NCBI RefSeq assembly: GCF_030684315.1
Contig: NC_081356.1
Coordinates: 8,072,362 to 8,136,361, forward strand
Source of the DNA: Stegostoma tigrinum
Lineage: Eukaryota
DNA length: 64,000 nucleotides
Direction of reading: 5' to 3'
Position numbers and translations under genes: made by a program. Below the pieces are notes generated by a model that was given only the letters and a program-made list of their open reading frames with translations, made no database searches and was not told the DNA's origin. Of the stretch, positions 2,185 to 62,779 are shown piece by piece (the first letter of the stretch is position 1; every line of letters begins with the position of its first letter).

Positions 2185-2472
2185 GAGATGGTAAGATGCA
2201 GATGCTGGAGTCAGAGATAACCGTGTGGAGTGGGAGGAGCACAGCAGGCCAGGCAGCATCAGAGGAGCAGGAAAGTTGATGTTTTGGGTCAGAACCCTTC
2301 TTCAGGGATATGGACCAAATGCTGGCAAATGGGACTAGATTCATTTAGGATATCTGGTTGGCGTGGACAAATTAGGCCAATTTGTCTGTTTCTGAAGAAA
2401 GGTCCCAACGTGAAACGTCAACTTTCCTGCACCTCTGATAGTGTCTGGCCTGCTGTGTTCCTCCAGCTCCAT
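2185..2472. mobile_element. PLE terminal-repeat (family A) fold-back insertion with 85-bp CR1-derived spacer
   Basis: Inverted arms 2185-2305 and 2391-2472; TSD agcctactcc at 2171-2180 and 2473-2482; decayed hammerhead core ctgaagaa...gaaacgtc from 2392. Confidence 0.85.
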
Positions 2473-3317
2473 AGCCTACTCCTGCCCTCCCTTTGGCTCC
2501 TTCATGTACTGGCCAAACTTGTATCAAACAATCGGTGATACATCAGACTGGAATGGCTTCTTTATCATCATATAACAATATAATGTGGGTGCCCAAACAT
2601 CTCACTTTTGGCAGTTCCCAAAGTAAAGACGTCACTGATAGCAGATGTCATGTTGTCTTGTGGACTGTGATGTTGGTTTGTATCATTATGGTTGTAACAT
2701 TTGTGAAGAGTTTGAAAAATGTGAATATGGTCATGATATCAGGTGTAACATGAACGCATACATTGTTGGAGAATGGTCATGCAAGATAAGTGATGCAAGA
2801 ACATAAATGGCTAATACCTCAAGTGAACAGGTTGATCGATGATACTCCATGTGGTGGGAAAATCATCAGCCATTGGGATCAGTGGTAGCTGAGCAAGAAC
2901 AGAAATGGAATTGCCCTTTCCCGCCAATCAGGAAGAGATGAAAATTACCCCAGAACATCAGTGTATGTTGATCATAAACTGCATCACAGATGATTCTGAT
3001 GCTTTCTCATGAATGTCCGAACTCCAAGACTTCTAAAAGTTGTAACTGAATTTCAGTGACAGTTGAGGAATACTCCTTAAATCATGTTCTCAACCAGGAC
3101 TGCTGAGACGGACCATAAAGCCCCGCTCATGCCCCAGCTGAATTGATTCAATCAAGTACACACTGGGCTTTCAATCAGCTGGTCTGCATGGTTTGGTAGC
3201 AACGTACATAATGCATTTGCCCAGTAAATCAATAAGAACAATTTAAAATAGGCTTTGAAAAGTAGGACAACTCAATAGACCTGGTATAAAGGTGCAGTCC
3301 TCATCAATATTTATCTG

Positions 3318-4137
3318 GCAAGGTCTGGCAGATGGAGTACAATGTTGATAAGTGTGAGGTCATCCATTTTGGTAGGAATAACAGCAAAATGGACTCTGTT
3401 TTAAATGGTAAAAAATTGCAGCACGCTGCTGTGCAGAGGGACTTGGGTGTCCTTGTCCATGAATCACTAAAAGTAGGATTGCAGGTGCAGCAGGTGATGA
3501 AAAAGGCAAATGGAATTTTTTCTGCCATTGCTCGAGGGATGGAGTTTAAAAACAGGGAGGCCATGCTGCAGCTGTATAGGGTCCTGGTGAGGCCACACCC
3601 GGAGTACTGTGTGCAGTTTTGGTCTCCTTACCTGAGAAGAGATATACCAGCACTGGAGGGGTGCAGGGGAGATTCACTCGGTTGACCCCAGAGTTGAGAG
3701 GGTTGGATTATGAGGAGATACTGTGTAGACTGGTATTATACTCACTGAAATTCAGAAGAATGAGTGGAGATCTTATAGAAACACATAAGATTATGAAGGG
3801 AATAGATAAGGTGGAGGCAGAGAGGTTGTTTCCACTAGCAGGTGAAACTAGGACAAGGGGCCATCGCCTCAAAATAAAGGGAAGCAGATGTAGGACTGAG
3901 GTCAGGAGGAACTTCTTCACCCAAAGCGTTGTGAATCTGAGGAATTCCCCGCCCAGTGAAGTGGTTGAAAATACCTCGCTGAATGTGTTTAAGACAAGGC
4001 TAGATAAATTGTTGAACAGTAAAGGAATTAAGGGTTATGGTGAATGGGTGGGTAAGTGTCAAACAGATCAGCCATGATCTTATTAAATGGTGGGGCCGGA
4101 TGGCCTACTCCTGCTCCTAGTTCTTATGTTCTTATGT
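3318..4137 (+). mobile_element. CR1 LINE, 5'-truncated, frameshifted ORF2 C-terminus and 3' UTR
   Basis: ORFs 3332-3685 and 3619-4077 contain CR1 motifs (KCEVIHFG, QRDLGVLV, LYRVLVRPHPEYCVQFWSP, TRTRGH, RNFFTQ); ends in a (ttcttatg)n-type tail. Confidence 0.95.
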
Positions 4138-5151
4138 AAGTTATATAGAGTAATAAGCAGTTTCCCAACACTATTGGATTGAAATTTCGCCATTGCAAAT
4201 TCCAACAGTGGCCTCAGGCAAGTGAGAAGGGTGGTTAATTGCATCAGAAACAATGACATGTAATAGTGTAGAGGAAAACTGGTGATGCCCAGGGTAGCCA
4301 TGATAATTCAAGAAAAAATGCATAGTGTTGCCTATCTCTGACAGACAACATAGAGAGAGTTATAGCAGAGATACATAGAGCTCTATACAACTCAATTAAT
4401 TTATTAAGTAGTTAAACAAATAATACATGCTTTTAACAACTAGAGATGTCCCAATTACTGCCTTTCACTATATTAGGTTCTGTAACTAACCCCAAGCATT
4501 ATGACCCAGGAGACTTGACAGCTGGCCAGGCTGGAACTCTTCCCAACATCTTCACCATGCTTCCTGTTGTAGGGTATCTCTTGTAGTGTTATTCTCAAGA
4601 GTTCTGCTGAAATTGGGGGTTTCCAGGCAATTTTATTTTTAATATACAGTTCAGACCTGTCATGTTGACATTCCAACTTCCTTATTTGGAATTGCTTGTT
4701 CAATTCCAAGTGGTTTTACTATCCATAAATAACAATGATTGAAGCCCTTTGATTTCCACAAATCCCTCTCCCTTTTATAGTCTCAACCATAACTTAGCGT
4801 TCTGATTGCTTTTTTATGGCAGCTGGAATGCCATTCTGTTCATTCTTCCTAACTGTAGCTGGGTGTGGTAATTTTAGAGGCCAATTTTCTACAATATCTT
4901 CTGTCAAACTTGTTTCAGTCCACTGTAAAACCTCGTATCGATTCCCACACCCAAAAATAGGTCAGCAGATGAGACCTGCATTCTTTGAATGTGGCCTCAG
5001 GAAAGCCCTGTTGGCTCCATGCTCAGTTAAATATACTTTATGATTTTATGTTTAAGGGCATCCTGTTTGTAAAACTAGTCTAGATGTTGCTTAGGTGCAA
5101 CCATATTAGATGCCTCTAATTAAGCCAATCTTGCTGAAGGAACCACAAAGA

Positions 5152-5412
5152 CATAGTGTCATCGAGCTGTGCAGCATGGAAACAGACCCTTCCATCTAAC
5201 TTGTCCTTGCCAACCAGATATTCTAAAGAAATCTAGTCCCATTTGCCATCATTTTGTCCATGTCACTCTAAACCTTTCCTATTCATATGTCCATCAAGAT
5301 GCCTTTTAAATGTTGTGATTGTAGCAGCCTCTACCACTTCATCTGGCAGCTCATTGTATAAATGCATCACACTCTACATTCAAAAGATTGACCCTTAGGT
5401 CTCTTTTAAATC
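5152..5412 (-). mobile_element. CR1-type LINE 3' end fragment
   Basis: Similar to 1858-2180; typical CR1 3' UTR in reverse. Confidence 0.7.
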
Positions 5413-18360: not shown

Positions 18361-18534
18361 GAAATAAAAACCAAAAGAACTGCGGATGTTGTAAATTAGG
18401 AACAAAAACAGAAAATACAGTGTGAATCTGTGAAGAAAACTCGGATTTAATGATTCAGGTCCAGTGACCCCTCTTCAGAACCACAGATGCTGCCAGACCT
18501 GTTGAACTATTCCAGTAATTTCTGTTTTTGTTCC
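18361..18534. mobile_element. PLE terminal-repeat (family B) insertion inside Gypsy
   Basis: ggtccagtgacccctcttcagaa (decayed hammerhead, minus strand) followed by an inverted arm cacagatgctgccagacctg...tctgtttttgttcc. Confidence 0.75.
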
Positions 18535-19195
18535 TCATTAGCCGTGCTAATGAGAAACTTTCTCTTTTCCTTTCAGACATTAAGACCCACAAGATTCAAC
18601 AATTCAGAGATACCCATGATCCTCTGGAACCTTCTTCCCCTCCCTAAAATGGTTTTAAATTTTCTGGACACACTTCCATACACACATGATAATGTCAGAC
18701 TTTGGACGCAGAAAGATATGGTCCTGGCAAAACGGAAACAGCTGGTGGTGATGGGTGAAGCCAAAGGGCCATCACAGCTAGAATTGAAACCTTTCTGGAC
18801 GGCATATTGTAATGGGGAGCAAGAGCGATCGTCCCAAACAAAGATCACCACCAGATACTGGCTCAACACCAGCAGGAACATCCAACGGTTTCCAAAATGA
18901 AGGTGTTGGCAAGAAGTTATGTCTGGTGGCCAGGACTGGATGCAGGCAAAGATGTATTGGTGGGTCAGTGCCCAGTGTGCCAACAAGGTCAAAAATTACA
19001 GCCAACAGCTCCCTCATGTTTGTGTGAGTGACTGGGTAAATCCTGAACTTGGTTACACATTGACTATGCAGGTCCCATCATGGGCTCGATGTTCTTGGTC
19101 ATTGTGAACATTCAGTAAAAGTGGCTAGACACGAATAAAGTTCATTCATCAAACAGGGGTATGACAAGAGAAAAACCATATGCATCTTTTGCACT

Positions 19196-19358
19196 ATAAG
19201 ATAATTAAATGTGAGGCTGGATGAACACAGCAGGCCAAGCAGCATCTCAGGAGCACAAAAGCTTTTGTGCTCCTGAGATGCTGCTTGGCCTGCTGTGTTC
19301 ATCCAGCCTCACATTTTATTATCTTGGATTCTCCAGCATCTGCAGTTCCCATTATCAC
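19196..19358. mobile_element. PLE terminal-repeat (family A, young) spacerless palindrome inside Gypsy integrase
   Basis: 64-bp arms 19198-19261 and 19262-19325, one mismatch, no spacer; tail to 19358; 15-bp TSD tgcatcttttgcact at 19181-19195 and 19359-19373. Confidence 0.95.
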
Positions 19359-21382: not shown

Positions 21383-21504
21383 GAGATAACACAGTGTAGA
21401 GCTGGGTGAACACTACAGGCCAAGCAGCATCAGAGAAGCATGTTGATGTTTCGGGTCAGGACCCTTCTTCAGGAAATCCAGCATCCGCAGTTCTTGCTAT
21501 CTCT
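21383..21504. mobile_element. PLE terminal-repeat (family A) partial fold-back
   Basis: Arm ending gggtcaggacccttcttcag followed by the inverted tail tccagcatccgcagttcttgctatctct. Confidence 0.8.
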
Positions 21505-21651: not shown

Positions 21652-21847
21652 CAGATAGTGGGAATTGCCAATGCTGGAGGATCTGAGATAACAAGGTGTA
21701 GACCTGGATGAACGCAGCAGGCCAAGGCAGCACCAAAGGAGCAGGAAAGCTGATGTTTCAGGTCTGGACCCAAAACGTCAGCTTTCCTGCTCCTCTGATG
21801 CTGCTTGGCTTGCTGTGTTCATCCAGCTGTATGCCTTGATATCTACG
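21652..21847. mobile_element. PLE terminal-repeat (family A) fold-back
   Basis: Inverted arms hinged in hammerhead stem II (ggtctggacc, ~21765); TSD tttcttaaa at 21643-21651 and 21848-21856. Confidence 0.9.
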
Positions 21848-22252
21848 TTTCTTAAAGCAATTTTTCGACTGTGAGACAATAAACTCAACGGTGAGTGGCA
21901 AGAAGCCTATTTTTACCCTTTTGCATGCAATATCATGCAATTTTACCTAGCATAACCTTGTCAGTTTGCAGCTTTGTCTTTTCCCATTTGTCAGAGAGAA
22001 ATTAGACAGTGACAATTGCTGACATGAAAGTCAGAGACAGGATCTGACATCTCCAGCTTTCGGTCTGCTCCTCCCAGCCTCCTTTGCTATACAAGTGTCA
22101 ATCATGCACAAGCGTCATTGGCAAAAGTGATCACAGAAAAATATATCCTAATTTTAAAAAGCTACCAATCAAGTGAAGACTTTGTATCTTTGCCAATAAA
22201 ATAAACCATTTTATGAGATTCTGGGCTCTGTAGAAAACCTTATTATACACAA

Positions 22253-22458
22253 GGAGATAGCAAGAAGCACAGCTATAGGAGTCAGAGTCCGGACAGTGTG
22301 GAGCTGGAGGAATACAACGGTTCAGGCAGAATCAGAAGAGCAGGAAGGTCGACATTTCGGGTTTACACTCTTCCTCAAGACTCAGGAAACGCAAAACATT
22401 GACTTTATTCCTCCTCTGATGCTGCCTGACCTGTTCCTCCAGCTCCACACTGCATTGA
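22253..22458. mobile_element. Old PLE terminal-repeat (family A-like) fold-back
   Basis: Diverged inverted arms; TSD cttattataca at 22239-22249 and 22459-22469. Confidence 0.8.
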
Positions 22459-23346: not shown

Positions 23347-25129
23347 ATTATTGCCACCAGATGCTGCTAGATTTCAGTCATTAAATCCTCGTTTAACTCC
23401 AATCTCCTATCTTGTATCATTTGCAAATATTCCTCTTTTGTCTTTCTTTGGTATGATCTCACATTTCCTTACATTGAACTCCAACTTCCATAATTACCCC
23501 ACCAGATTCCCCACAGTAAACTGAAATTTCCTAAACCTACATGCACTGGTTACAGTGTATCCTAACTTAGCATCATCAGCAAACTTTCATATAAAATTTA
23601 ATTTCTTCATCTTGTCACCCTTTGTGCTCTCCCCAGAAGCAGGGCCCTGATCAAGTTATCTACTGATGCTTCATCTTAAGCCATTTCCTGGGGCAGCTTC
23701 TGGTCATTAGTGGTTTGCCATTCCCTTTAAGTCCTGGGGACTGGGCAATGAGCAGGTACCCAGCTGGATTGGAAGTTGAACTGATAATGTGGCATCAACC
23801 TGAGCTGTATGCTAGACATCTAACTGGCCGGATATTTTTCATCTACGTTATGATATATGCAGTGAAAAGTCAAAGACCTACTAAAAATTCCCTGGGACAA
23901 ATCTTACTGTGTTGTGCCTGTCAGAGAAGATTACCCTGATATCCTACTCTCTGCTACTGATTTCCCATCCAATGTTAATTCCACAAGCTCTCCTCCAGTT
24001 CCATTTGTGAAGATTTTTGATCATAAAATCTTGTTTGGAACTCTGTTGACTGCCCCAGAAGGCAATACAGACAACATCTATTGATAACCTTTATCAAAAA
24101 TTTCAACAAGTATAGTCAGGCAGGAGGAAATTCATGTAGACTCGGTTTGGTCAGTTAACACCTGCACTCAGTCATTTTCTGACAAAACCTGCAACTTTGC
24201 CGCATTGACAAAAAACTGATAGGTTTTTTTCAATTTTATTAATCATAAAATGAATATTAAAAGTCACAAAATTAATTCATTATTAATAATATAGTTGCAT
24301 TTTATGCTGCATATTTAGGCAATGTTTATATAATATAAGCCAAGTATACCAAAATTGCTCAAAATCACATTAATGCCTGAAAAACTTTTTTATTGATTTG
24401 AACTTCTTTTCATTTTTCTGAGGTGACTACATTTTCAAAAATCTGGATTTGAGAGACTATTGATTTGATAGCCAAACATATTGTTAAATAGCAACAACTT
24501 GATTAAATATGCACACAAAACTGGCATGCGAAAGTTTGAAATGGCTTATTCCTGGGATAGAAAGACTTTCTTCAGACTGAACAATACATTGAGAAAACTT
24601 ACAGATATAGCCAGTTTCTACCTAATTAAACAGTGCCTTTGGGCATAGCAATGGTCAAGTTTGCTGGTTTCCTATAGTCAGATAGAGGAACGTTTCTTCT
24701 AGTGGTAATAAATCAAATGATGTGCAAAAAAAAGTTATTACTTTTTCACTATAAATGCTGGTGTTTTTATTAATAGAAAAACAAGATGAATAACTAATGC
24801 TGATAAAGATTGATGAAACAGTAAGATACTAAACCAGGCATGTTAGGAGACACTGAGCCAGAGTTTTAAAAAGCTAAAGATCAGGGGAGACAGAAATCAC
24901 ATGCCTGTAACATATTTTGTAATGTATTGTTGTGCATATTTATGACTTTTTTCTCAAATATGAACTATGATGATGTTCATAATCACATAAATAATTATAT
25001 TATTGGGAATAGGCCTCATTATGTTTGACAAAACAATGATCTGCAAAATGATTCTCAGGTGAGGACTGAAAGCATGAGCTCTAATATTAATTCTCCAAAC
25101 AGTAGTGTAGACATGTTAAAGAAATGAAA

Positions 25130-25293
25130 TGGAGGTGCTGCTGCTGGGCTGGGTGACCAAAGACAGAAGTCACCCAGCACCAGGTTATAGTCCTACAGGC
25201 TTGTTTGTGGTGATGAAGGAGCAGAACTTCAAAAGCTTGTAATTTTAAACAAGCCTGTAGGATTATAACCTGGTGTCATGTGATTTCTGACTT
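25130..25293. mobile_element. PLE terminal-repeat (family C) fold-back
   Basis: Arms caccaggttatagtcctacaggcttgttt / aaacaagcctgtaggattataacctggtg flank a decayed hammerhead tgatgaaggag...cttcaaaagctt; TSD tgttaaag(a/t)aatg at 25114-25126 and 25294-25306. Confidence 0.85.
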
Positions 25294-25684: not shown

Positions 25685-25902
25685 CAGAGATAATGGGAAC
25701 TGCAGATGCTGGAGAATTCCAAGATAATAAAATGTGAGGCTGGATGAACACAGCAGGCCAAGCAGCATCTCAGGAGCACAAAAGCTGACGTTTCGGGCCT
25801 AGACCCTTCATCAGAGAGGTCTAGGCCTGAAACGTCAGCTTTTGTGCTCCTGAGATGCTGCTTGGCCTGCTGTGTTCATCCAGCCTCACATTTTATTATC
25901 TT
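25685..25902. mobile_element. PLE terminal-repeat (family A, young) fold-back
   Basis: Long arm 25685-25818 and short inverted arm ~25818-25904; 14-bp TSD ggtatagctaatgt at 25671-25684 and 25903-25916. Confidence 0.95.
25787..25814 (-). ncRNA. Minimal type I hammerhead ribozyme core (predicted)
   Basis: Minus strand reads CUGAUGA-A-GGG UCUAGG CCC-GAAA-CG-UC^AGCU. Helix III is reduced to palindromic ACGU, so it could only form in a dimer; helix I is weak. Activity is not demonstrated. Confidence 0.75.
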
Positions 25903-25939
25903 GGTATAGCTAATGTATTGGTTTTAAATTTCAAAACTT

Positions 25940-27244: not shown

Positions 27245-27584
27245 GAGATAATGGGAACTGCAGATGCTGGAGAATCCAAGATAACAAAGTGTGGAGCTGG
27301 ATGAACACAGCAGGCCAAGCAGCATCTTAGGACCACAAAAGCTGACGTTTCGGGCCAAGGCCCTTCATCAGAAAAGGGGGATGGGGAGACGATTCTGAAA
27401 TAAATAGGGAGAGAGGGGGAGACAGACCGAAGGTGGATAGAGGAGAAGATAGGTGCAGAGGCGGAGGTGGCTGAAAATCTGCTCGATGTCCAGTGTATGT
27501 GGCTGTGGTACCTGGTTTGCTTCAGGACGTGGTCGAGCAGTTTCAAGGCTGAAGAGACCACACGAGAGTTGCAGTGGGAGAGAG
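27245..27584 (-). mobile_element. Internally deleted PLE (family A terminal repeat plus ORF N-terminal pieces)
   Basis: Family A repeat 27245-27371; purine-rich UTR to ~27455 (shared with the 54623-54942 copy); then coding-like SLSHCNSRVVSSALKLLDHVLKQTRYHSHI and LDIEQIFSHLRL; TSD atttgtgcca at 27235-27244 and 27585-27594. Confidence 0.85.
27344..27371 (-). ncRNA. Minimal hammerhead ribozyme core (predicted)
   Basis: CUGAUGA-A-GGGC CUUG GCCC-GAAA-CG-UC; intact core with a stem II variant. Confidence 0.75.
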
Positions 27585-27594
27585 ATTTGTGCCA

Positions 27595-36032: not shown

Positions 36033-36216
36033 TTTAGAAATAGTGAGAACGGCTGATGCTGGAGAATCTGACACAGCAAGGTGTGGAGCTGGATGAACAC
36101 AACAGGCCAAGCTGCATCAGAGGAGCAGGAAAGCTGACGTTTCGGGTCTGGACCCTTCTTCACAAGTTCCTCTGATGCTGCTTAGCCTGCTGTGTTCATC
36201 CAGCTCTACACCTTGT
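36033..36216. mobile_element. PLE terminal-repeat (family A) fold-back
   Basis: Long arm to ~36162 and short inverted arm; 17-bp TSD tatcccagtcacataga at 36016-36032 and 36217-36233. Confidence 0.9.
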
Positions 36217-41700: not shown

Positions 41701-42017
41701 TTTCTTTTCTACTGGGCTCGAATCCTGGGCCTCGTTTTATCTTAGAGAAAGACTTTACAGGCTGTGAACCAAAAGAGCAAGCAGAAAGTACCTCTTTCTG
41801 TCCGCACCAAATTTTGAAGCTGCCTCTAAATTATCCAAGTGATCCAAACTACATTGTCAGTGGGGATGTGTCTCACTTGAGATGTGATTTTTCTTCCTGA
41901 CATGCACAGCTTATTAATCATTTTAGTGTGTTAGGATTCCTCTTTAAATGTTAATGGTCTCTAACACACACAAGTGGCTCAAGCCAATCCAAGATAAAGC
42001 AACTCACTTTATTGGCA

Positions 42018-42154
42018 ATAAAAATAGAAAGCTGCAGATACTGTAAATCAGTAACAAAAGCAGAAATAGCTGGTAAAGCTCAGTATGTCTGGCAGCATCT
42101 GTAAAGAGTAATCAGAGTTAATGTTTCTGGTCGAGTGACCCTTCGTCAGAGCTG
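42018..42154 (-). mobile_element. PLE terminal-repeat (family B) single copy
   Basis: Minus strand ctgacgaagggtcactcgaccagaaacattaactctg (hammerhead-like) plus family B body. Confidence 0.8.
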
Positions 42155-44613: not shown

Positions 44614-46358
44614 TAGGTTGTCGGCTTGCTCGCCAAACTGGCTGGTTATCATACAGATGTTTCGTCACTATATTAGGTAACATCAGCAGTGCAGCTTCTG
44701 GAGAAGCAACATTGTTCTACTCCACATGGTAACTATAAGATCTGGTTTGTTGAATTGGATTGTGTCATTTCTGGTTCTGTTCTGCATGGATTTGTATCTG
44801 GGGTTTAATTTCACATTTGTTGATTGCACTATAGGTTGAAAACCAGGCCTCTAGGAATTCCCGTATGTGTCTATGATTGGTTTGAACTAGGATGGTCACT
44901 TTGTCCTAGTTAAATTGATGGCCTTCATGTTCCGAGTGCTCTGAGATGGGGGAAAGTTTGTTGTGTTGTTTTGCTACTTGCTGGTGTTTGTGTATCTTGA
45001 TGGCTAATTTCTGTCTTCAAATGGAAGTTGATTGTCGTCTTCTTCTTCTCTCAAAAATTTAATCCCGATGAAAACTTTGTTGATAAGATGGCGTGTCTCT
45101 TCTAACTTGCTGTGTTTAATTTTGACAAATGTGTTGTCGATGTATTGGATCCACAGTTTTGGCTGTATGATGGGGAGGGTAGTGCATTCCAGTCTTTGTA
45201 TGACCACCTCTGCAATAAGTCCTGAGATGAGTGACCCCATGGGTGTGCCATTGATTTGTTTGCACATTTGGCTGTTGAAGATGAAGTGTGTGGTGAGGCA
45301 TAGGCCCAGTAGTCTGAGATCCAAGACTGTGGGTCCAATACATGGACAAACACGTTTGTCATCATTAAATGCACCAACTTAGAAGAGGCACGCCATATTC
45401 ATCAACAACATTTTCACTGGGTTCAAACTCACAAGCGGAGAGGAAAACGCCAATCAACTTCTGGCCCTAGACATCACAGTAAAACAAATAACCAATGGGG
45501 AGTTCCAAATCACAGTACACAGGAAAGCAAACAACACTGACCAAATCCTCAATTTTCACAGCAATCACCCCAAACAAAGCTGTTTTAGGACATGATTCAA
45601 AAGAGCCGCAATGTACTACAACAAGCCAGAACTATATAGGAAGGAGGAATAGTGCCAACAATGGACATCCTAACAACTTCATTCACAAGTGCCTTCTAGG
45701 TAGATAACACCAAGACAACAAAGTACGCCCCAAAACATTGGCTACATTACCTGACATCAAGAACACATCAGAACTGACAAGGCTCCTGTGACCACGAGGA
45801 ATCATGGTACCACAAACCCACAGCTACACTATAATAAAGACTCACAAGGATCAACGACCCCATACCCTAGACATGCAGGATGAAGATAGTTTACAAAATA
45901 CCTTGCAATGCCTGCAACAAAGACTACATCGGCGAGACCAGAAGGAAACTAACCAGCAGGACACACAAATACCAGCTAACAGCAAAACAGCACGATGAAC
46001 TTACTCACATCACAGTGTACTTAGACAATGAAGGCCAAAAATTTAGCTTGGACAACATGACCATCTCAGCTCAAGCCAATCACAGACATGCAAGATAATT
46101 CCTAGTGGCCTGGTTTTCAACTCATAATGCAATCAACAAACATGTGGAATCAGACCTCACAAACAAAGCTGTGCAGAACAGAACCAAAAATGACACACCC
46201 CAACTTAACAGACTGAATCATATAAATTCCAAGCAGAGTAGAACAACATTGTTTCATCGGAAGTCCCACTGATCATGTTACTTAGCATGGTGACAAAACA
46301 TCTGAACAGCAACCAGCCAGCTCGGTGAGCAAGCCAACAATCTCAGCCACAACCTCAG
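44614..46358. mobile_element. Degenerate Penelope/Poseidon-type PLE with two oppositely oriented RT/GIY-YIG segments
   Basis: Minus segment 44614-45320 (KQINGTPMGSLISGLIAEVVIQRLE...WIQYIDNTFV); plus segment 45321-46358 (RT C-terminus, GIY-YIG IVYKIPCNACNKDYIGETRRKL); inverted terminal repeats; 13-bp TSD tataaatgaaaat at 44601-44613 and 46359-46371. Confidence 0.9.
46269..46302 (+). ncRNA. Decayed hammerhead motif in the Poseidon-type terminal repeat
   Basis: ctgatcatgttacttagcatggtgacaaaacatc; its mirror at 44656-44689 (minus) reads ctgctgatgttacctaatatagtgacgaaacatc; consensus CUGAUGA-U-GUUACC...GGUGAC-GAAAC. Confidence 0.65.
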
Positions 46359-46771
46359 TATAAATGAAAATAGAATACTTCAAACTCTGAAACTATAACT
46401 TTTATAATTTTTTTCTATGCAATACATTTTTTCTTTAATGTAAATCCTTTCAAACATGACACTTGGAAATCTAAATAGGAATGCCCCCCAGAATTGGGCA
46501 AGATGCACAACATTTCCAAAACTATTTGTAGTAGCATAGACAGAGATTGCCGGAAATGCTCAGTGGGTCTGGCGGCAACTGTGGAGATAATTTGCAGTCA
46601 GCATTTTGGGTCAAGTGACTGTTCCTCGGAGCCTAGTTGTAGTAATGCAGGCAATCCCCATGCTGTCTACTCATTTTGATGGTTGTGGTTTATAGCCCAG
46701 TCCTGAACATGTTGTTGACAGTGCCTGTATGTCTCAACGATCCCATATTTTTGTAAGATAGATATTACATG

Positions 46772-46864
46772 TAATAAAATGTGAGGCTGGATGAACACAG
46801 CAGGCCAAGCAGCATCTCAGGAGCACAAAAGCTGACGTTTCGGGCCTAGACCCTTCATCAGAGG
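46772..46864 (-). mobile_element. PLE terminal-repeat (family A, young) single tailless copy with intact hammerhead core (46834-46861)
   Basis: Identical to the matching part of the 25685-25818 arm; TSD attacatgta at 46764-46773 and 46865-46874. Confidence 0.95.
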
Positions 46865-47007: not shown

Positions 47008-47150
47008 GTAATAAAAAAAAACCAAGGGCTATGGGTGTTAGAAATCAAAAACACAAACAGAAAATGCTGGAAAAACTCAGCAGGTCTGGCAGCATTTGTG
47101 GACAGAAAGCAAAGGTAATGTTTTGGGTCCAGTGACTCTTCTTCAGAACT
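47008..47150 (-). mobile_element. PLE terminal-repeat (family B) single copy
   Basis: aaacagaaaatgctggaaaaactcagcaggtctggcagcat...gggtccagtgactcttcttcagaact. Confidence 0.8.
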
Positions 47151-50100
47151 GTAATAGTTCTGATAATAGCCTCTTTCATGCATATAGGACAGGTTGTGAA
47201 TAAAAGGCACCTGATCATCAGTAAGAAGATTGATGTACATCACTCTGAACAACCTCAATTTTACATCATCGCTCGTGCCTTTTAAAGGCAAAATGTAATC
47301 TGGCCTCAGCAGGGGTTAAAACAGTTTGGAGAAGTTTGAGAGATCTAGTAGAAGGATCAGGAATAATGTAACAGTACAGAGAGCATGCTCTGAAGTTAAT
47401 TGTTGCTGGTGGTTTTCGTGGAAGAGGTATTCAGGGAGAAAAAGAGGTTCACTTCCATCCAGAGAGAAGATCAGTGCTGAGAAGGCAGGCGGAGAATGCA
47501 TGCTGCTCAGTCAACGTCATCTCAAGCTGAGAATCATGATACTGTGCTGGCACATTTAATTATCCTGCATACCAAATCCTATCAAATGCACCACTAGCCT
47601 CACGCATGTGCCCCAGCCACCATATTCCCTCCAGCAGCCAACCAACAGTCAATGCCAACCATTACTCACACCTCTCATTCATATGCTTCATCTTACGTAG
47701 CAATGCTAGGAGCTGCACACTCACATCTCACAGCCCTCACACATTGCCAGCTGGTCAGGTGGGTAGACATTGCTGAAAGAGATTGCACTGATTTCTCCTC
47801 TTTCACAGAATGCATTATCCTATAAGAAGGGACATTAGCAGCTAACCAGCATGTGATAGGCATGACCATATATACTGAGGTGGTAGTGCTGGGAGTGATA
47901 GGAGTGAATGCCACTAAGGTTATGAAAGGCAGCTTAGGTCATCAATAGACATTGAATTAATATTCTTAGCCACTCTATGTAACCAGCATGCAATTTGGTG
48001 TGATTAAGCTACAGCATAACAAGATTGCATTTGTAAATACTATTACAAGAAGCTGATTTGCAGATGCATTTGAAACAAAGCAGATATGAGTGTATGCGAT
48101 GGACAAACCATTTGCAGTTAGGGTGTGGGGAACCATTTGCACAAACTTACAGGAGTATGTTACTGGAAGATATGTCAAATAGATTACCAAATTGCATTGA
48201 CCATTATTTGCGGTTCTGGAGTAAAATTGTATAAGATGACACTTTGTTTGCACAAGGGCAGAGTGCATTCGACACAACCCTGTGTGGAGTGTCCAAAATG
48301 CTCCTCCCTGTTGTTGTTGCTTGAATAAACAGCAACTTGTGTGAACTCTGCTGCCTGCTGAAATTTAGCCCTGGCCGGATTGTTCCTACAGGTTGTCATC
48401 AGTAGCATTGCTACAGTCATGGATGATGATGATATGTTACTGTCTAATGTATATTTTCAAATCTCAGTCCATGACGTCCGGCAATCTGGTATGGTGCACA
48501 ACCTGCACATGATGAAACCATGCACCATGTGTTTGTACCTGCCCCATACTGTCACTCCAACTCTTCCTTTGTTCAGTTATACCCAAGATGTTCAGGAAAA
48601 GCAGCTCAGATGGCCGTTTTTTCCCCAGTGAGATGCCTGGAGGGGGTGAAGACGGAGGATGAAGAAACATCATCATTTGATCTGATAAGTGCAGCCTTCA
48701 AAAGGCACACTAGCACAGTCCATATATTAAACAGCAGCACAGTATAGAGATAGGGTGTGCGTGTGATGAGTCACTGCGCATTCGAATGGGCTGCAGTCAG
48801 GCCAGAGGGCTTGACACTCATAGGTGGAGAGCACTTGCTGATGGATCCTTGTGCAGAGGATTCAGGTGAGAATATTGAAGGGGATGATGTGAAGAAATAC
48901 GTAGTGCATTGGCAGGCTTGCTGGAAAGTCTGCAGTCATTGCCAAATCTCATAAAGGAATCATTTGGCAAAGGGCATCACAGAGACCCTTGAATCCCAGG
49001 ATCTGAAACAAAACCAGAAAGTGCTTGAAATACAAAACGGGTCTAACAGCAGCTGCAGAGGAAAATAAATTTGATTCCTACTCCTGATTTTCTTATCTGT
49101 CAACTTCTGGCACAATTCCAGCCATTTTTGGGAGGCAAAATACAGCCTTATAGACTTAGATATTTACTGCACAGAAAGAAACCATTTGGCTCATTGTGTC
49201 TATACTAGTCAACAAAGATTTGACTATATTAAACTCACATTGCAGCTCTTGGTTCTCCTGTGACACTTTGAGTTTGTTAACCCAGCTTCACCATCATCTG
49301 TCTCTGCCTGGGACCTCTCCACTGTCACTACTCCCTTTAAGCTCACTTCCACAGCTCTTGAGTCTCCTACAGCTCCCCTGCCTGTCTGTCTGATTCTGGG
49401 ACCTCTCTTCAACTCCTTGTTGCTCAATCATTCAGGTGGCTAAAGGGAAAAAAATTATATCTGGCTGTTTGGGAAAAGCCTTTTCAATTACCATAGCACG
49501 TTGGTTTCTGTAGCTGGAATTTTGGGTACATTTTGCTATGTTATATGCCTGATATTACTTCAACATTTTCACATTTTACTGGAAGCTGGCAGATTTTGTT
49601 TGAAGAGTAGCAGTCCAGATGATTAGCATTTGCAACTTGTTACATATATTGGCTGAATGAATCTGAGATAAGCACAGTAAATTTTACAGGAAACACATTA
49701 ATTAAACAAAATACTAGTTATAACCCAAGCATACATTTAATTGTAATAGGAAACAATTTTGGAAAGCATTGTTTACTCAGCCTAATAATTAGACCCTTCA
49801 CACTGGTGATTAACATCATGCCATGTTTATTCCTATTATTTGTATTTCTTCACTTTCTCTATGATCGCCCCATAATTTTTTTATTATTTCATACAACGTA
49901 ATGATCATCATGATTTAATTTGACAAACACTAATACAAACTTTTGGGTTCTCTGCTGTTTCGCTTTCAGCTACTGTAAATTATTGGTGGCTCAATGACAG
50001 AATCTCTCAAATGCCTTTCCAGATGCACAGTTAACTCTGCTGACTGGTGTTGATCAATTATTAGACCTGAATTAATACCAAAATCATATTTTAATCACAT

Positions 50101-51399
50101 AGCTCGACAATAATAATGGTCTCGCCTATTCATTGCTGATCATGCCTGGGCTCTAGAATGAACAAGTAGGAAGAATTTATGCTGCACATTCCCATCTGTT
50201 CATTGCTGTTCTGTGATCAGGTTGACTGTAAGCTCTGCATGCTAAAACTGACAGCAGATTTAATGCAACTATAAATTTAAAATGAAATGAACAGCTGAAA
50301 GATGAAACAGTTTGGCCTCATTCTCTGCCTGTGGGTAACTATATGGTGTCCGCTGCCTCACTTGGCAATCTTCGCACAATAATTGATGGTACACAGTTAC
50401 CAATTCAAGGAAAGTACGCCAGTTCTATCTCAAACACAGCCAAGCTACTTTGCATGTATTAATATATAATTTGAATATATACTGGAGAGGAGATTTTATT
50501 TTGCATTTATTCAGAGTCTGTGCAAGATACACGGAACTTTAGGAAGAAAATCTATTGATACATCCACCTCACTGTCAAGCAGTTATGTTTCAAAAGTGCT
50601 GAGCAAATTTCAAGCCTTTAATGATTGAAATACATTTTAAAGCAAAAAATTTTAAAGTCCAGCAGTTTCATTAGCTTATGGCTTGCATTGGTGACATTTT
50701 GAATGAAACGTAGAAGCTTGATAAAGCACTCAACAAAGTTTCATAATTGACTCATGTCCTCAAGAAGTTGTCACAATGTTATGAATCCTTTCAGAGCAGC
50801 CTATTGTTAGAAACGGCCCCTCTGTCAAGCTTATAGTAAAAAAATAGAAAATGTAATAGCTTTGTGAATAACTTGATTTTGCCCAAAATCCTCAAAAGTC
50901 ACGGGAAAGTAACACGTACAGCCAGATCTTAAAGCTGTACAATCAATCCAGGAAAAAAAAGTAGGATACAGATCATATTCATGATCTGGGACTGTGGATA
51001 TGATAATATGGAATGAATTATATTCTCAAACTGGCAGAGCACAATGATGATGCTCACCCGTGAAAATTATGGACTTATTTCCATTTACTTCAATGAGTTA
51101 TTCCCAAACTATCTTACTTCCATGTTAATTATGTTTATTCTTAACCATTGACATTGCTACATTTTAACTCAATCTAAACAAATCAAGTGTTATTTCTTGC
51201 CTTTCGATTAGCCATAATAACTCATGGCTACATTTTTCTGCTTCCCCTCATAAGGCTCTGCCTGGTTTTCCCAAGGCAGTTAACCCCCTTGTTACTTAGA
51301 AGGCTTTGCTGCAGGTCTTAATATTTATCCATTATTCTTTGCAAGCTTTCAACCTGTCAACAAGAGAATGGTACAATTTCAAAGGTGGTACATGATGCA

Positions 51400-51870
51400 G
51401 AGGTGTCGGTGTTGGACTGAGGTGGACAAGGTCAGAAATCACACGACACCAGGTTACAGCCCAACAGGTTCATTTGAAAACACAAGCTTTTGGAGTCTTC
51501 AGGTGTTAGTGAGAGAGGGAGTACTTAACACAGAATTTAGAAGTAAAAAATCAAAGGGTCACACCACTGATGAGGATGTATTAAACAAACCTGAGATGCT
51601 GTTAAACATTTAATTGGGTAGAAGGTTTTAATTGATTAATATGCATACGTAAATTCCCAAATTCCTTTCAAGTCATGGTCCTGAGGGAATTAAAAGTTTT
51701 ATCAATGCAAAGAAGAGGTGACATTTTAGGTCAGACAGTGCATGTTAGATGTGAAGCCTTGTTTAGAATCTGTGTTTTGATATGGAGTCAGACTGGTTTT
51801 ATTTCTAAAGAAGGAATTTATAAAATGCCACATTGACTGGTTGTCTACCAATTGTGTGCTTTTTTTCATT
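51400..51870 (-). mobile_element. PLE family C terminal repeat with longer upstream region
   Basis: gtcagaaatcacacgacaccaggttacagcccaacagg matches the family C arms at 25130-25293; right boundary approximate. Confidence 0.65.
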
Positions 51871-51874
51871 TCCA

Positions 51875-52985
51875 TATGGAAATGAAATTAACTGAACCAT
51901 AAGCATTTTCTGATGGATAGTTTTTGTGTTTTAAACTTGATCACAGCATTAGGAGGTTAGCAGCACCCAGTGAACAAAAGTTGATTGACCATCTAGCTTA
52001 AAACAAACCTACAATTTTTTTAACAATTTAATTTCATAATCTCTTGAATAAATATATAGTGCAGGTAGAAATGACTTACATTGGCAATGAAAAACAAATG
52101 ATCGAATTACAGAAACACAAGTAGAGATTCCTGGGAAAGCTTAGCAGGCCTGGAAGCTTCTGTGAAGAGAAATCAGATTTAATGTTTTGGGTTTGATGAC
52201 ACTTCCTCAGAACACATTTATTTCTATGAATGCTGCTAGCACCCATGAAATAAAGCTTCTAGTTTTTGGAAAAGTTGGTTTCTACAGTGTTGGACCTGTG
52301 ATTTACCATATATAGAACAATGCATGGATGGACAAAGAAATTTTTCAAGAATGATTTTGTAATGATCTTGTACCTGCAGTGAAAGACCGTTTTAGAAATA
52401 TAGGCAAGCCTAAAGGCATTGACACTATTCAATTTTTAGACAATGCTTTTTAAATTGGAGTTAAAGAACTTTTTTTTTACCAATTTCCTGCCTCCCAATA
52501 TAACTTCATTAATTCAACCTTTGCACTATTTCATGTCAGGGAAATTTTTTGAGAAAGATAACCAATAGTGAAGGCACTATGCAGAATTTTCAATCTATCA
52601 TATGGCATAACTGATGCAATTTTTAATGCGGCCTATACTTGGAAATCAGTGAGAAAAGCAACATTGAGTAGGCCTTGGAGGAAATTGCTACCCAGTTCTA
52701 TGTTTGTGGAAAGTTCTTCTGATGAAGAAGATATTGAAGCATTTAATGCAAGACCTAGATCAAATACATTAACTGAAATTATGAGAATGGTGGATCATGC
52801 TTCTTCTGCGCATCCAATGATCAAACTTAGCAAATGAAAGACAGAAGGTTGGGTTGACAAAAATGCTGAAGTGGAACATGTTATTGGCAATGCAGAAACT
52901 ACGTAGAGAATTGTGAATCCTGAAAAGCGGTGACTAAATAAGACTCAGAAGAAGAGGATTTCACTGAGGAGGAGAAAATAACTCA
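51875..52985 (+). mobile_element. Tigger/pogo-type DNA transposon, transposase relic
   Basis: HEIKLLVFGK (~52245), NAWMDKEIFQE*FCNDLVPAVK, FLDNA and FLPPNITSLIQPL match pogo/Tigger DDE_1 motifs; interrupted by a family B PLE repeat. Confidence 0.85.
52088..52213 (-). mobile_element. PLE terminal-repeat (family B) single copy
   Basis: ctgggaaagcttagcaggcctgg...gttttgggtttgatgacacttcctcagaac. Confidence 0.7.
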
Positions 52986-52990
52986 GACTA

Positions 52991-54622: not shown

Positions 54623-54942
54623 AGAGATAACGGGAACTGCAGATGCTGGAGAAACCGAGATAACAAAGTGTAGAGCTGGATGAACACAGCAGGTCAAGCA
54701 GCATCCTAGGAGCACAAAAGCTGACATTCCCGGGCCTAACCCCTTAATCGGAAAAGTAGGGTCGGGGGAGAGGGTTCTGAAATAAATAGGGAGAGAGGGA
54801 GAGGTGAATCAAAGATGGATAGAGGAGAAGATAGGTGGAGAGGAGACAGACAAGTTAAAGAGGCGGGGATGGAGCCTGTAGAGGTGAGTGTAGGTGGGGA
54901 GGTAGGGAAGGATAGGTCAGCCCAGGGAGGACGGACAGGTCA
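54623..54942 (-). mobile_element. PLE family A terminal repeat with ~190 bp purine-rich upstream UTR
   Basis: Tail and body like the 27245 copy; decayed hammerhead; no TSD seen; part of the host CR1 appears to be missing at this site. Confidence 0.85.
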
Positions 54943-56342: not shown

Positions 56343-56562
56343 ATCTGCGCATATATAAAGTTCACAATCTCAAGCATATCAAATACAAAACGCTTTGTAA
56401 TAATGAGGATTATTCTGTTTACTGAGAAAAATTAAATTATAAAAGACATGCAATTGGGAAGTCCGAAAGAACCGCACCACCAATTCACTTCATTTGAAGT
56501 GTAAGTGAAAATCGCACAAAAACAATTTGAACAAATACCCATGTAGTTATTTTTTTGTGGTG

Positions 56563-56730
56563 ACAGAGACAGAAATTGCAGGAGAAACGCAAATGGGGAG
56601 ACAGCAGAGTTAACATTCTGAGTCCGGTGACTCTTCCTGAGTTTCTAAAACTCAGAGCTGCCCAAGGTTTCTCCAACAATTTCTGCATTTGTTTCAGATC
56701 TCCAGCATTTGTAGTTCTTTGTTTAGTTTT
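56563..56730. mobile_element. PLE terminal-repeat (family B) fold-back
   Basis: acagaaattgcaggagaaac...gagtccggtgactcttcctga followed by inverted gtttctccaacaatttctgc...tccagcatttgtagttc. Confidence 0.75.
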
Positions 56731-60445: not shown

Positions 60446-61567
60446 TTTGCGTAAGATTCTTGTGGCACAGTGGTAGCAACCTTAGGTCAGACCTTGGGGG
60501 GGGGGGGGGGGGGCAGGTTTAAGTTCCACCAGCTCCAGAGGTGCATTTGGATAGGTTGATTAAAAAAAATGTCTAAGCTGATGCCCTATTTCATTTGTAT
60601 GTTACTCATAGCATTGATGCTTATAAATGTTTGCGTTTTGATTTAGGAGTTATCCAGTAATGAGAAAACAATAAAAGCAGCTCTTCTAAACCCCTACACC
60701 CTTATATTCAAATAGGACGAATCAATAAATGATGGAATATAAATGCAAATTAGATTGCCTTGTGTTGCCTTGATTTCAACAGCTAGATTGCTAGGGCTTC
60801 AGGGCTGGATGAGGCATATGGATCGCACATGGAACATTCCAACATAAATAGTCTCTGTATAAAATTACTATTTTACTCTCTGAGGATCTAAAAGCTGTTA
60901 GAAAAGATATGCGACCCTGATGTATACTTAACCTGTCTAGGTTGCATTTTACTATTTAGCAGTTTATGGCATCTTTTGATCATGTTTCCACAGAGAAGAT
61001 TGGTGTGAAGCTTAAATACAAAGGTTGCTGTGAATAATTCAACTTGAGTCTACTTTTTGAAAAGGAGTTGGAAATCTTACATTCTTAAGGTGCTAATGAA
61101 CAAACTTTGATGTTATTTTCTTAAAGATAGTAAACAATAAGTGTTAACTTTTCTTGATAATTGATCAAACCTCATACCTACTATATTGGGAACAAAGGTG
61201 TTTCACTGCAGATTGCCACAGTGAGCAAATATGCAAGATATGGACAAAAAAGTGTGCAAGGAGGCAGGCTTTTGAGAAAGTTTAGAAAATGGACAGTCAG
61301 AGAGAGGATACAAAATGGGCTAGATAGAGACTTAGATTTTATTATCACTTGCACTCAAGTTTAGAAGTACAGGAGTACAGTGAAAAGAGTATAATGTTGC
61401 TACACATGGTGCCATGTTGGGGGCAAAGGTACACAGGTATTAAAAGCTTAGATACAAGGTCGTAAAAGAAACAAAGTCTAAAAAGTTAAACATTACCTTT
61501 GTAGAGTATGTAAAAAAATAAGGATATAAGGTAAAAACGAAAAGAAATTTGAATGCCGTAAATCAGT

Positions 61568-61692
61568 ATCCAAAACAGAAAGTGCTAGAAAAGTGCTCTG
61601 ACGAAGGGTCACTCAACCCAAAATGTTAACTCTGATTTCTCTTCACAGATGCTGCCAGACCTCCTGAGCTCTTTCAGCAATTTCTGTTTCTG
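61568..61692. mobile_element. PLE terminal-repeat (family B) partial fold-back
   Basis: aaacagaaagtgctagaaaag then ctgacgaagggtcactcaacccaaaatgttaactctg...gcaatttctgttt. Confidence 0.75.
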
Positions 61693-62009
61693 TAAAAAAA
61701 AGTAATCGTTAACATTAAAATCGTCGTAATTTAAACCAGAAAACTAAAGGAATAAGGTTAAAATCAAAGTTATAAAGTTAAAAAGAATAAAGCTTGGCTA
61801 CAATATAAAAAGAGTTCCAAATCAGAAATCCAAGTTAAGGATGAATATCCACTGATAATATTTATAGAATCATTCAGAGGAAATTTGACGTAAACAAAAT
61901 GAACCTGATCTTAACAGTTGTTCTCTATATTCATTTGCCACAAAGCAGCTTAATGGCTGTCAAGCATTTTATTTCCTGGGAGTTGTGATCGGAAAGGCTA
62001 AATCATGGA

Positions 62010-62600
62010 AGCTGGCAGGGCAGGTTGAGATAAAATGGCATATAGGACCTTGACCTTTATAAATAGAATACAAAAGCAATTATGTTATGATGAAAAATTC
62101 ATAAAACACTGGGATTGCCTTAATTGGAGGATTGTGTCCAAAACAGAGATCTCAATTTAGTTGAGATAGGAAAGCTTCAGAGAGGATTCAACAAATGCTT
62201 ATGAGGATGGTTCTGGGTCTGACACCCTGGACAGTTACATGAATGATTTGAAGAAATTAGTATTTTTCTTAGAGGGGCATTGATAAAAGTATTCAAAGTC
62301 ATGAGCTGTCCGAATAGAGAGATTAAAAAAGTTGAAAACTATAGGACACAGGCATAAGGGGATTAGCAAAAAAACACTCATAGGTAACAGGAGGAAAATG
62401 TTTTAGCCAACAAATGGTTGCACCTGAGAATATACCCCCTCAGAGGGTGTTGAGGCAGATTCAGTCTACAGGGAAACATTTGCAGAGATTTGGAACAGTG
62501 GCAGCGGAGTATTACTATCTAAATTGCTCTTGCTGAAAACCAGGATGGAGCCTATTCGCTAAATGGCATTGTACTCCACTGTAACCAATGTATGATTTTA
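62010..62600 (+). mobile_element. Old CR1 3' portion
   Basis: atagaatacaaaagc, aattggaggattgtgtcc, tail tgtatgatttta; decayed. Confidence 0.5.
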
Positions 62601-62638
62601 AACAGCCATAGGTGTGAGCACAACCAGTTCATATGGGT

Positions 62639-62779
62639 TAACAAGGTGTACAGCTGGATGAACACAGCATGCCAGGCAGCATCAGAGGAGCACGAAAGCT
62701 GACGTTTCGGGTCGGGACCCTTCTTCAGAAATACAACTTGTTATCTCAGACTCCAGCATCAGCAGTTCTTACTATCTCT
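62639..62779. mobile_element. PLE terminal-repeat (family A) partial fold-back with intact hammerhead core (62701-62728, minus)
   Basis: Minus strand CUGAAGA-A-GGGU CCCG ACCC-GAAA-CG-UC; inverted tail; TSD tcatatgggt (62629-62638) / tcatttgggt (62784-62793). Confidence 0.9.

What the first reader, a model, noticed from the sequence alone, without database searches (positions are those of the whole stretch)
2185..62779. Swarm of hammerhead-bearing, fold-back Penelope mini-elements (retrozyme-like system)
Seen: about 24 insertions, mostly 90-350 bp, from three sequence families, most with a CUGANGA-N-stem-GAAA-(CG/GC)-UH core. Stem II differs but stays paired across copies: GGGC/GCCC (27344), GGGU/ACCC (62701), GGGUC/GACCC (family B, ~32140) and GUUACC/GGUGAC (46269 consensus). 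Many have 9-17 bp TSDs and inverted arms. They sit inside Gypsy, CR1, Rex1, Tigger and SINE copies, so they are a late layer. Established: PLE terminal repeats carry minimal hammerheads with a palindromic helix III thought to work as dimers, and an extra nucleotide after A9 is tolerated in some natural hammerheads. Inference: these are non-coding ribozyme-containing units mobilised by PLE RT/GIY-YIG at SINE-like density. Helix III is shrunk to ACGU/AGCU and helix I is weak, so activity is uncertain.
Basis: partly seen in the sequence, partly recalled or inferred. Interest (0 to 1): 0.75.

Follow-up and report, generated by a model that had tools for sequence, protein, structure and literature searches.

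The report
Truncated Penelope retroelement ends, very dense
The window is peppered with short, often hairpin-shaped stubs left by Penelope-type jumping genes; their built-in ribozyme motif and fold-back layout are already described for this class, so the swarm is real but mostly ordinary.

Summary
"Most with a core" is overstated: 6 loci have an intact core and 12 are within one mismatch. They are best read as 5'-truncated ends of Penelope-like elements (PLEs). One locus still encodes PLE reverse transcriptase and endonuclease. Family A has two 3' ends 36 nt apart in public runs of three organisms, and many reads continue upstream. All 16 non-coding two-armed loci carry the long end on one arm only, the published "inverted repeat plus one-sided tail" layout. 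They fail the retrozyme test: no tandem units with intact ribozymes, and one young insertion has a mutated core. One regularity is unexplained: 12 of 26 family A arms stop within 5 nt of the ribozyme start, which leaves room for a discrete short RNA template. A coding parent for families A-C was not found. The scan reported the same pattern on other DNA (e1-7789271, e1-9866773).

The parts
2181..2472 (.). A2.2: family A, two arms head-to-head (long end left, short right) with a LINE-type spacer 2308-2394; TSD 10 bp
18366..18540 (.). B18.4: family B, two arms (long left, short right), inside an LTR-retrotransposon remnant; no significant TSD
19196..19358 (.). A19.2: young fold-back, arms 65/66 identical, both starting at the predicted cleavage site; TSD 15 bp; interrupts an integrase frame
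21383..21503 (.). A21.4: short arm with intact core plus tail-only arm; partly an inverted copy of A21.7 and its flank
21652..21847 (.). A21.7: fold-back centred on stem II; TSD 9 bp
22250..22458 (.). A22.3: older two-armed copy; TSD 11 bp
25127..25293 (.). C25.2: family C, two arms, core with 2 mismatches, AGCU helix III; TSD 13 bp (1 mismatch)
25685..25902 (.). A25.7: young fold-back, arms 84/85 identical, intact core on the left arm; TSD 14 bp
27245..27584 (-). A27.3: long-end copy with intact core (C3 at 27371), about 90 nt of pyrimidine-rich upstream sequence and a second repeated piece 27490-27586; TSD 10 bp
29785..30103 (.). A29.8: young fold-back with four ribozyme units (42 bp tandem), all A14G; arms 94/94 identical; TSD 15 bp
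30380..30477 (+). A30.4: single arm starting at the predicted cleavage site; no significant TSD
30824..31181 (.). A30.8: two arms around a spacer (30909-31042) that is an inverted copy of 30476-30609; weak TSD
32071..32263 (.). B32.1: family B, two arms; weak TSD
35495..35595 (+). B35.5: family B single arm, decayed core
36033..36216 (.). A36.1: two arms; TSD 17 bp
38221..38402 (.). A38.2: two arms; decayed 15 bp TSD (3 mismatches); downstream of a LINE RT remnant
42016..42153 (-). B42.1: family B single long arm
44614..46358 (.). D44.6: coding PLE remnant, two inverted arms (about 77% alike over the shared 3' part) with RT, GIY-YIG-type endonuclease, ribozyme motif (C3 at 44689 and 46269) and 3' end; TSD 13 bp
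46534..46632 (-). B46.6: family B single arm; TSD 12 bp (1 mismatch)
46774..46864 (-). A46.8: single short arm with intact core; TSD 10 bp
47035..47150 (-). B47.1: family B single arm
48997..49070 (-). B49.0: family B fragment without the ribozyme motif
51395..51505 (-). C51.4: family C single long arm, most of the core deleted
52085..52214 (-). B52.1: family B single long arm
54623..54942 (-). A54.7: long-end copy with about 190 nt of pyrimidine-rich upstream sequence, decayed core, between LINE remnants
56557..56728 (.). B56.6: family B, two arms (short left, long right)
61530..61695 (.). B61.6: family B, two arms (long left, short right)
62639..62783 (.). A62.7: short arm with intact core plus tail-only arm; weak TSD

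Best explanation
These are heavily 5'-truncated insertions of several endonuclease-bearing Penelope-like retroelement families. What remains of each is the 3' end of the pseudo-LTR: a minimal hammerhead plus a 60-100 nt extension. Likely route: (1) the PLE protein nicks both strands of a target 9-17 bp apart (shown: variable TSDs; the enzyme is inferred); (2) both nicked ends are extended on element RNA, one from a distal start (about +127 from C3) and one from a proximal start (about +92) (shown: two ends, always one of each; two priming events are inferred from PMC11167929, about 50% likely); (3) synthesis stops early, most often just past the hairpin that the ribozyme region forms (shown: pile-up and fold; the cause is inferred); (4) the two cDNAs join head-to-head at short palindromes or through captured DNA, and fill-in makes the TSD (inferred). 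The ribozyme motif is inherited from the parent's terminal repeat and then decays; it is not needed for the stub to insert.
For: D44.6 encodes PLE RT and endonuclease with the same ribozyme type, inverted arms and a 13 bp TSD. Family A has two 3' ends: 11 of 11 two-armed A loci pair one end at +81..98 with one at +125..141, and 4 of 4 B and 1 of 1 C loci have one long end. In run X1, loose ends fall at 27243 (1,568 contigs) and 27279/80/82 (3,418, 1,226, 704); X6 and X8 list 27279, and X8 also 27243. A27.3 and A54.7 continue upstream; 10,352 X21 reads link that upstream stretch to the ribozyme and 7,040 run on past 27461. A29.8 inserted with A14G in all four units, in line with ribozyme mutants not affecting insertion in vitro (PMC11167929). 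Inverted repeats, one-sided 30-40 bp tail, palindromic junctions and captured DNA are described PLE traits; dispersed single and opposite-strand minimal hammerheads are described as probable truncated PLEs.
Against: No coding parent was tied to A, B or C: the 27490-27586 piece found no protein relative, and D's 3' end is a different sequence. 5' ends are not smoothly spread: 12 of the 14 A arms that reach the ribozyme start stop within 5 nt of it (0.5-1.4 expected), more like a fixed end than random truncation. Three arms at two loci start exactly at the predicted cleavage site. The two D arms differ by only about 14 nt at their 3' ends (read), so the coding family does not itself show the 35 nt tail rule. 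No whole genome was available.
Confidence: 0.78

Rival explanations
1. Most copies come from a discrete RNA of about 130 nt that begins just before the hammerhead and ends in the tail: either a dedicated non-autonomous unit (a PLE-dependent SINE equivalent) or the 5' end of the element's mRNA, copied when RT starts at the ORF-start site and runs off.
For: 5' pile-up at -5..0 in 12 of 26 A arms; with one arm per locus and A21.4 dropped, 8 of 10 against 0.2-0.6 expected. Several B arms start at the same place. In X1, the 227 contigs with loose ends behind 27356 give a consensus that finishes the ribozyme and then loses agreement. RT starts internally near the ORF start in a lizard PLE (PMC11167929). 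Putatively non-autonomous PLEs exist in algae (PMC8557442).
Against: Longer copies share the same sequence. The region C3 to +30 folds as one hairpin (-7.9 to -13.1 kcal/mol against -1.5 to -3.8 for the hammerhead-compatible fold), which could stop RT there without any short RNA. In D. virilis the transcript starts 46 nt before a 75 nt intron (PMC2377424) whose end lies at helix I, so that element offers no precedent for a start at the ribozyme.
Confidence: 0.17
2. Same PLE origin, different geometry: one cDNA folds back and primes its own second arm, and the endonuclease trims one end, leaving the tail on one side only.
For: Young arms are near-identical and share private changes (A29.8 94/94, A25.7 84/85, A19.2 65/66). 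Junctions sit on palindromes (stem II, AGCT). Self-priming and endonuclease resolution were proposed in PMC3846280 and PMC8557442.
Against: Arms often start at different positions and can be separated by unrelated DNA (A2.2, A30.8) or reduced to the tail alone (A21.4, A62.7). In vitro, the two ends match two RT start sites and both target strands are extended.
Confidence: 0.4
3. A true non-LTR retrozyme system: tandem units with working hammerheads are cut to monomers, circularised and retrotransposed.
For: Type I cores are present. One 42 bp triple repeat exists. Three arms start at the cleavage site. Retrozymes were reported in one chondrichthyan genome and are tied to PLE terminal repeats (bioRxiv 10.64898/2026.07.22.740005).
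Against: No 150-450 bp head-to-tail units among the 6 TRF rows. Paired motifs are on opposite strands, so they cannot form the cis dimer on one transcript. The one tandem is A14G. Cores are the minimal PLE type, not the canonical type of retrozymes (PMC7229834). Copies include sequence on both sides of the cleavage site and end at two internal sites.
Confidence: 0.04
4. DNA-transposon MITEs with terminal inverted repeats that resemble a hammerhead by chance.
For: Short, hairpin-shaped, TSD-flanked.
Against: TSDs vary from 9 to 17 bp; the two ends differ by about 35 nt; 11 of 28 loci are single-armed; inner ends vary; the core is far above chance.
Confidence: 0.01

Closest known systems
Insertion units of endonuclease-bearing Penelope-like elements (Arkhipova et al. 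2013, PMC3846280; Craig et al. 2021, PMC8557442; passages read)
   Same: Strong 5' truncation, head-to-head inverted terminal repeats, a 30-40 bp tail usually at one end only, TSDs of about 8-10 bp, palindromes at the inverted junction, host DNA captured between repeats.
   Different: Here most units lack any coding part, TSDs reach 17 bp, density is one per 2.3 kb, and 5' ends pile up at the ribozyme start, which I did not see stated in the passages read.
Minimal hammerheads of metazoan PLEs (Cervera and De la Pena 2014, PMC4209133; main text read)
   Same: Helix III reduced to a palindrome, extra nucleotide after A9, weak helix I, several families per genome, mostly single motifs ascribed to truncated PLEs, some opposite-strand pairs 100-700 bp apart.
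   Different: Stem II here is 4-6 bp (7-8 bp in Schistosoma). Sharks are not named in the text read; supplements were not read. Copy numbers here look far above the 4,000-9,000 given for coelacanth and Xenopus, though not measured on an assembly.
Poseidon_Ac of Anolis (Frangieh et al. 2024, PMC11167929; main text read)
   Same: Two internal RT start sites that bracket the tail, downstream of the hammerhead; both target strands cut and extended; AT-rich targets; ribozyme cleavage not needed for insertion.
   Different: Their two starts lie 111-118 bp into the ORF; family A ends lie about 92 and 127 nt from C3. Clade of the A/B/C parents is unknown.
Non-LTR retrozymes (Cervera and De la Pena 2020, PMC7229834, passages; Li et al. 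2026, 10.64898/2026.07.22.740005, abstract to discussion)
   Same: Non-coding, type I hammerhead, related to PLE terminal repeats, dispersed monomers exist.
   Different: Defined by head-to-tail units with complete ribozymes and circular RNA; neither is seen here.

Membership tests
EN+ Penelope-like element insertion | PLE-type RT followed by a GIY-YIG endonuclease | tested here: met
   Family D only: RT 72% identical to P0001; RT, thumb and endonuclease regions match 832 aa P0006 in order; endonuclease region aligns to the GIY-YIG-bearing end of P0023 (E 5e-11, single comparison); Pfam GIY-YIG itself did not hit the decayed copy
EN+ Penelope-like element insertion | Families A, B, C physically linked to such a reading frame | tested here: inconclusive
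   Upstream extension shown for A; no protein match for the 27490-27586 piece; no genome
EN+ Penelope-like element insertion | Minimal type I hammerhead near the 3' end | tested here: met
   6 exact cores, 12 of 28 loci within one mismatch; chance 0.1 and 1.1 hits per shuffle
EN+ Penelope-like element insertion | Optional 30-40 bp tail, on one end of inverted units | tested here: met
   16 of 16 non-coding two-armed loci have one long end; two ends 36 nt apart in public runs; D ends differ by only about 14 nt
EN+ Penelope-like element insertion | Variable-length TSD and variable 5' truncation | tested here: met
   12 of 28 TSDs of 9-17 bp; A 5' ends from about -190 to +101, with a pile-up at -5..0
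Non-LTR retrozyme | At least two consecutive head-to-tail units, each with a complete hammerhead | tested here: not met
   One 42 bp x 2.9 array among 6 TRF rows, all units A14G; window only
Non-LTR retrozyme | Canonical type I hammerhead with helix I of about 6 bp and loop 1-loop 2 contacts | tested here: not met
   Helix I is 2 bp, 67% of cells paired; a competing hairpin is 6-10 kcal/mol more stable
Non-LTR retrozyme | Expressed as circular RNA and self-cleaving | not testable with these tools
   Needs stranded RNA reads and a cleavage assay
MITE | Fixed short TSD and symmetric terminal inverted repeats | tested here: not met
   TSD 9-17 bp; ends differ by about 35 nt
Described Dfam/Repbase family | Match to a curated consensus | not testable with these tools

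The most novel reading that the evidence does not exclude
Most of these stubs are full copies of a discrete RNA of about 130 nt, running from just before the hammerhead to the tail. A PLE protein dimer copies it from two different start sites onto the two nicked target strands. That would be a SINE-like, ribozyme-headed partner of PLEs reaching very high copy number in a vertebrate, and the strict long/short pairing would be an in vivo record of an asymmetric two-RT mechanism.
Probability: 0.17. Interest if true: 0.55.

Novelty: new member of a known kind. Interest (0 to 1): 0.22.

Why it matters
As it stands, it adds very abundant PLE families (about a tenth of this window) that repeat annotation could mislabel as MITEs or microRNA hairpins. 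The young, high-copy family is a convenient natural dataset for an open question, how PLEs form inverted units and one-sided tails. The long/short pairing and the 5' pile-up are countable predictions for the lizard PLE in vitro system. If a discrete short RNA is the template, it would be a new non-autonomous partner class for PLEs.

Tried and rejected
No whole genome is held, so no genome-wide consensus or copy count. Rfam at gathering thresholds gave 0 hits in the window; at E<=5 on 25000-32500, 16 hits, none a hammerhead, mostly microRNA models matching the hairpins. Monomer folds are not better than shuffles in 6 of 7 cases (z -1.0 to +0.7; family C -2.1). Searches for a coding parent of family A gave nothing: protein search (2 candidates, none significant), profile of 40 long PLE proteins over six frames (hits only in D), protein atlas (best 0.89, unrelated). 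Pattern scans: metagenomes 0 and 1 hit, the hit a chance match in GC-rich DNA; viral contigs 0. No RNA holder listed; X8 is only guessed to be RNA, so expression and cleavage were not tested. The loose-end table is not a ranked top list (a row with 6 contigs is shown, 1,259 rows are hidden), so I draw nothing from absent rows; its depths are not copy numbers, and X21 is bisulfite-converted. Rejected: the A2.2 spacer as a local copy (it matches 1866-1961 at 74/94 and 5179-5267 at 72/89); TSD calls at B56.6 and A21.4 (inside the element); the three +29 starts as proof of cleavage (two loci, one on a palindrome); my recollection that the D. virilis transcript starts at the ribozyme (one search shows otherwise). 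Look-ups of earlier findings by place and by sequence returned nothing.
Full report
1. What is there. Self-comparison and profile searches give 28 loci between 2181 and 62783, 6,623 bp in all, 10.3% of the window. Fifteen belong to family A, ten to family B (the A and B profiles find each other), two to family C and one to family D. Twenty-five are 90-350 bp. Boundaries were set by hand from alignments and TSDs. The host looks like a cartilaginous fish; that is recalled from the look of its repeats and from earlier scan notes, and no call shows it. Penelope-like elements are reported as expanded in whale shark introns (10.1101/443036, passages).

2. The ribozyme motif. A descriptor (CUGANGA, optional extra base, stem II of at least 4 bp, GAAA, two bases, UH) found 6 exact hits, all in family A, against 2 hits in 20 Markov shuffles; within one mismatch there were 18 hits, 15 of them in these families (12 loci), against a mean of 1.1. 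So the motif is real, but 16 of 28 loci have lost two or more core positions, the stem, or the whole motif; many changes fall at CpG sites, as neutral decay would give (read). In 23 aligned arms, stem II pairs in 87% of cells and the whole structure in 81%, against 6-48% when partners are slid; five pairs show a both-side change (2 of 500 shuffles), but in stem II each is a single sequence, and the copies are related. The pair U-A / U-G / C-G is the one convincing variable pair. Helix III is ACGU in A, B and D and AGCU in C; helix I is 2 bp. This is the minimal hammerhead that Cervera and De la Pena described for metazoan PLEs, including the extra base after A9, many families per genome, mostly single motifs ascribed to truncated PLEs, and opposite-strand pairs 100-700 bp apart (PMC4209133, parts 1-2 of 4; supplements not read, and they may list shark motifs). 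For three intact A copies the preferred monomer fold is a different hairpin that pairs the 5' core strand with the cleavage region (-7.9 to -13.1 kcal/mol against -1.5 to -3.8). Rfam did not detect the motif.

3. Target duplications and hosts. Thirteen of 28 loci reach a TSD score of 9 or more, against 0.66% of 756 mismatched boundary pairs. One is the element's own tail and was dropped, leaving 12, of 9-17 bp. Four more have weaker candidates. A19.2 duplicates the residues ASFAL in an LTR-retrotransposon integrase frame, which shows late insertion directly. A38.2 and A54.7 lie beside LINE RT remnants. Rex1, Tigger and SINE labels were not tested. A21.4 shares its short arm and at least 70 bp of flank with A21.7 in inverted orientation, so the number of independent events is at most 27.

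4. Family D is a coding PLE. 44614-46358 has a perfect 13 bp TSD and two inverted arms. The left arm has RT motifs (72% identical to P0001 over 94 residues) joined by a deletion to the endonuclease end; the right arm has the RT end, thumb and endonuclease, matching the 832 aa P0006 in order. The endonuclease stretch aligns with the GIY-YIG-bearing end of P0023, although Pfam's GIY-YIG model does not hit the decayed copy. Both arms end in a hammerhead motif and a short 3' extension. D shows the layout in a coding family, but its 3' end differs from A, B and C, so it is not their parent.

5. Family A is the end of something longer, with two 3' ends. A27.3 and A54.7 continue upstream into a shared pyrimidine-rich stretch. 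Laying four public runs on 27150-27640 at 80% likeness placed 171,324 contigs of X1; this is not a copy number. In X21, 10,352 reads link the upstream stretch to the ribozyme and 7,040 run on past 27461; the X6 loose end there matches the next stretch of A54.7 (28 of 30 letters, by eye). On the tail side, contigs leave into unrelated A/T-rich flank at two places 36 nt apart: 27243 (1,568) and 27279/80/82 (3,418, 1,226, 704) in X1; 27279/80 in X6; 27243 and 27279 in X8. In the window, 11 of 11 two-armed A loci pair an end at +81..98 with an end at +125..141 (C3 = +1); independent choice at 50% gives P = 0.0005. Four of 4 B loci and the C locus also have one long end. D does not fit cleanly (about 14 nt difference). 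This is the published PLE layout: inverted terminal repeats, a 30-40 bp tail often at only one end, palindromes at the junction, captured DNA (PMC3846280, PMC8557442, PMC8969392; passages). In vitro, a lizard PLE extends both target strands and starts RT at two internal sites that bracket the tail (PMC11167929, parts 1-2 of 4).

6. Not a retrozyme by the published tests. Retrozymes are head-to-tail units of 150-450 bp with complete, mostly canonical hammerheads, expressed as circles (PMC7229834, passages; bioRxiv 10.64898/2026.07.22.740005, parts 1-3 of 5; its supplements are closed and list the chondrichthyan families, which might overlap these). The only such array here is 42 bp x 2.9, and all four units of that insertion carry A14G; that A14 is essential is recalled knowledge. 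Its arms are 94/94 identical and its 15 bp TSD is perfect, so a template with a mutated core was mobilised recently. That agrees with ribozyme mutants leaving insertion unchanged in vitro.

7. What does not fit simple truncation. Of 26 A arms, 14 reach the ribozyme start and 12 of these stop at -5..0; a constant stop rate predicts 0.5-1.4. With one arm per locus and A21.4 dropped it is 8 of 10 against 0.2-0.6 (positions, partly set by hand, and for older subfamilies defined by the TSD or the abutting arm). Several B arms start at the same place. Three arms at two loci start at +29, the predicted cleavage site; one locus sits on a palindrome there, so this is weak. Both sites are the feet of the competing hairpin, which offers a structural cause; a short RNA starting there is the alternative. 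I did not see this pile-up stated in the texts read (searches), but I read several only in passages, and subscription papers, Repbase and Dfam were out of reach.

8. Verdict. Real and dense, but a new member of a known kind: truncated PLE ends in the known inverted, one-tailed form (confidence 0.78). The link of A, B and C to a coding parent is inferred, not shown. Two earlier notes of this scan reached the same reading on other DNA; I had stated this reading before seeing them, and they are not independent evidence. Interest 0.22; the short-template case has probability about 0.17 and would merit about 0.55.

Noticed in passing
window 27243-27289, public run X1: Hundreds of contigs join a long end directly to a short end on the opposite strand (tail-to-tail; listed rows of 85, 64, 39, 19, 16, 16, 15, 12, 12, 2 contigs). 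Could be insertion into the A/T-rich spot of an older copy's own tail, or concatenated cDNAs; symmetric junctions may be invisible in such contigs.
   Followed up: partly
30909-31042 versus 30476-30609: The spacer of A30.8 is an inverted copy (about 79%) of DNA 200-350 bp upstream, with a short match to the ribozyme start at the junction; A30.4 later inserted into the donor stretch. Looks like a locally templated insert.
   Followed up: partly
21310-21476 versus 21760-21918: A family A arm plus at least 70 bp of its flank is present twice in inverted orientation (about 81%): a local inverted duplication or transduction.
   Followed up: partly
44614-46358: The two arms of the coding PLE are only about 77% alike while the 13 bp TSD is perfect, which may mean two different RNA templates in one event, or two events.
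   Followed up: no
27490-27586: A second repeated piece inside A27.3, present in runs of three organisms at much lower depth than the tail; it reads as a short open frame but matched no protein.
   Followed up: partly
P0003 residues 358-379: A predicted eukaryotic protein ends in the antisense translation of the family A tail (86% to 2198-2263): probably a gene-model artefact, showing these repeats leak into protein sets.
   Followed up: no
17300-20200: Decayed LTR-retrotransposon remnant (protease-like and integrase zinc-finger hits, many stops) carrying B18.4 and A19.2.
   Followed up: partly
9501-9584: Unrelated 36 bp inverted repeat with a 12 nt loop, no ribozyme core.
   Followed up: no
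3290-4077, 7380-7586, 25929-26453, 36816-37386, 38787-39074, 43204-43623, 53010-53587, 54161-55184: Many decayed LINE reverse-transcriptase 3' fragments (tblastn with P0093).
   Followed up: no
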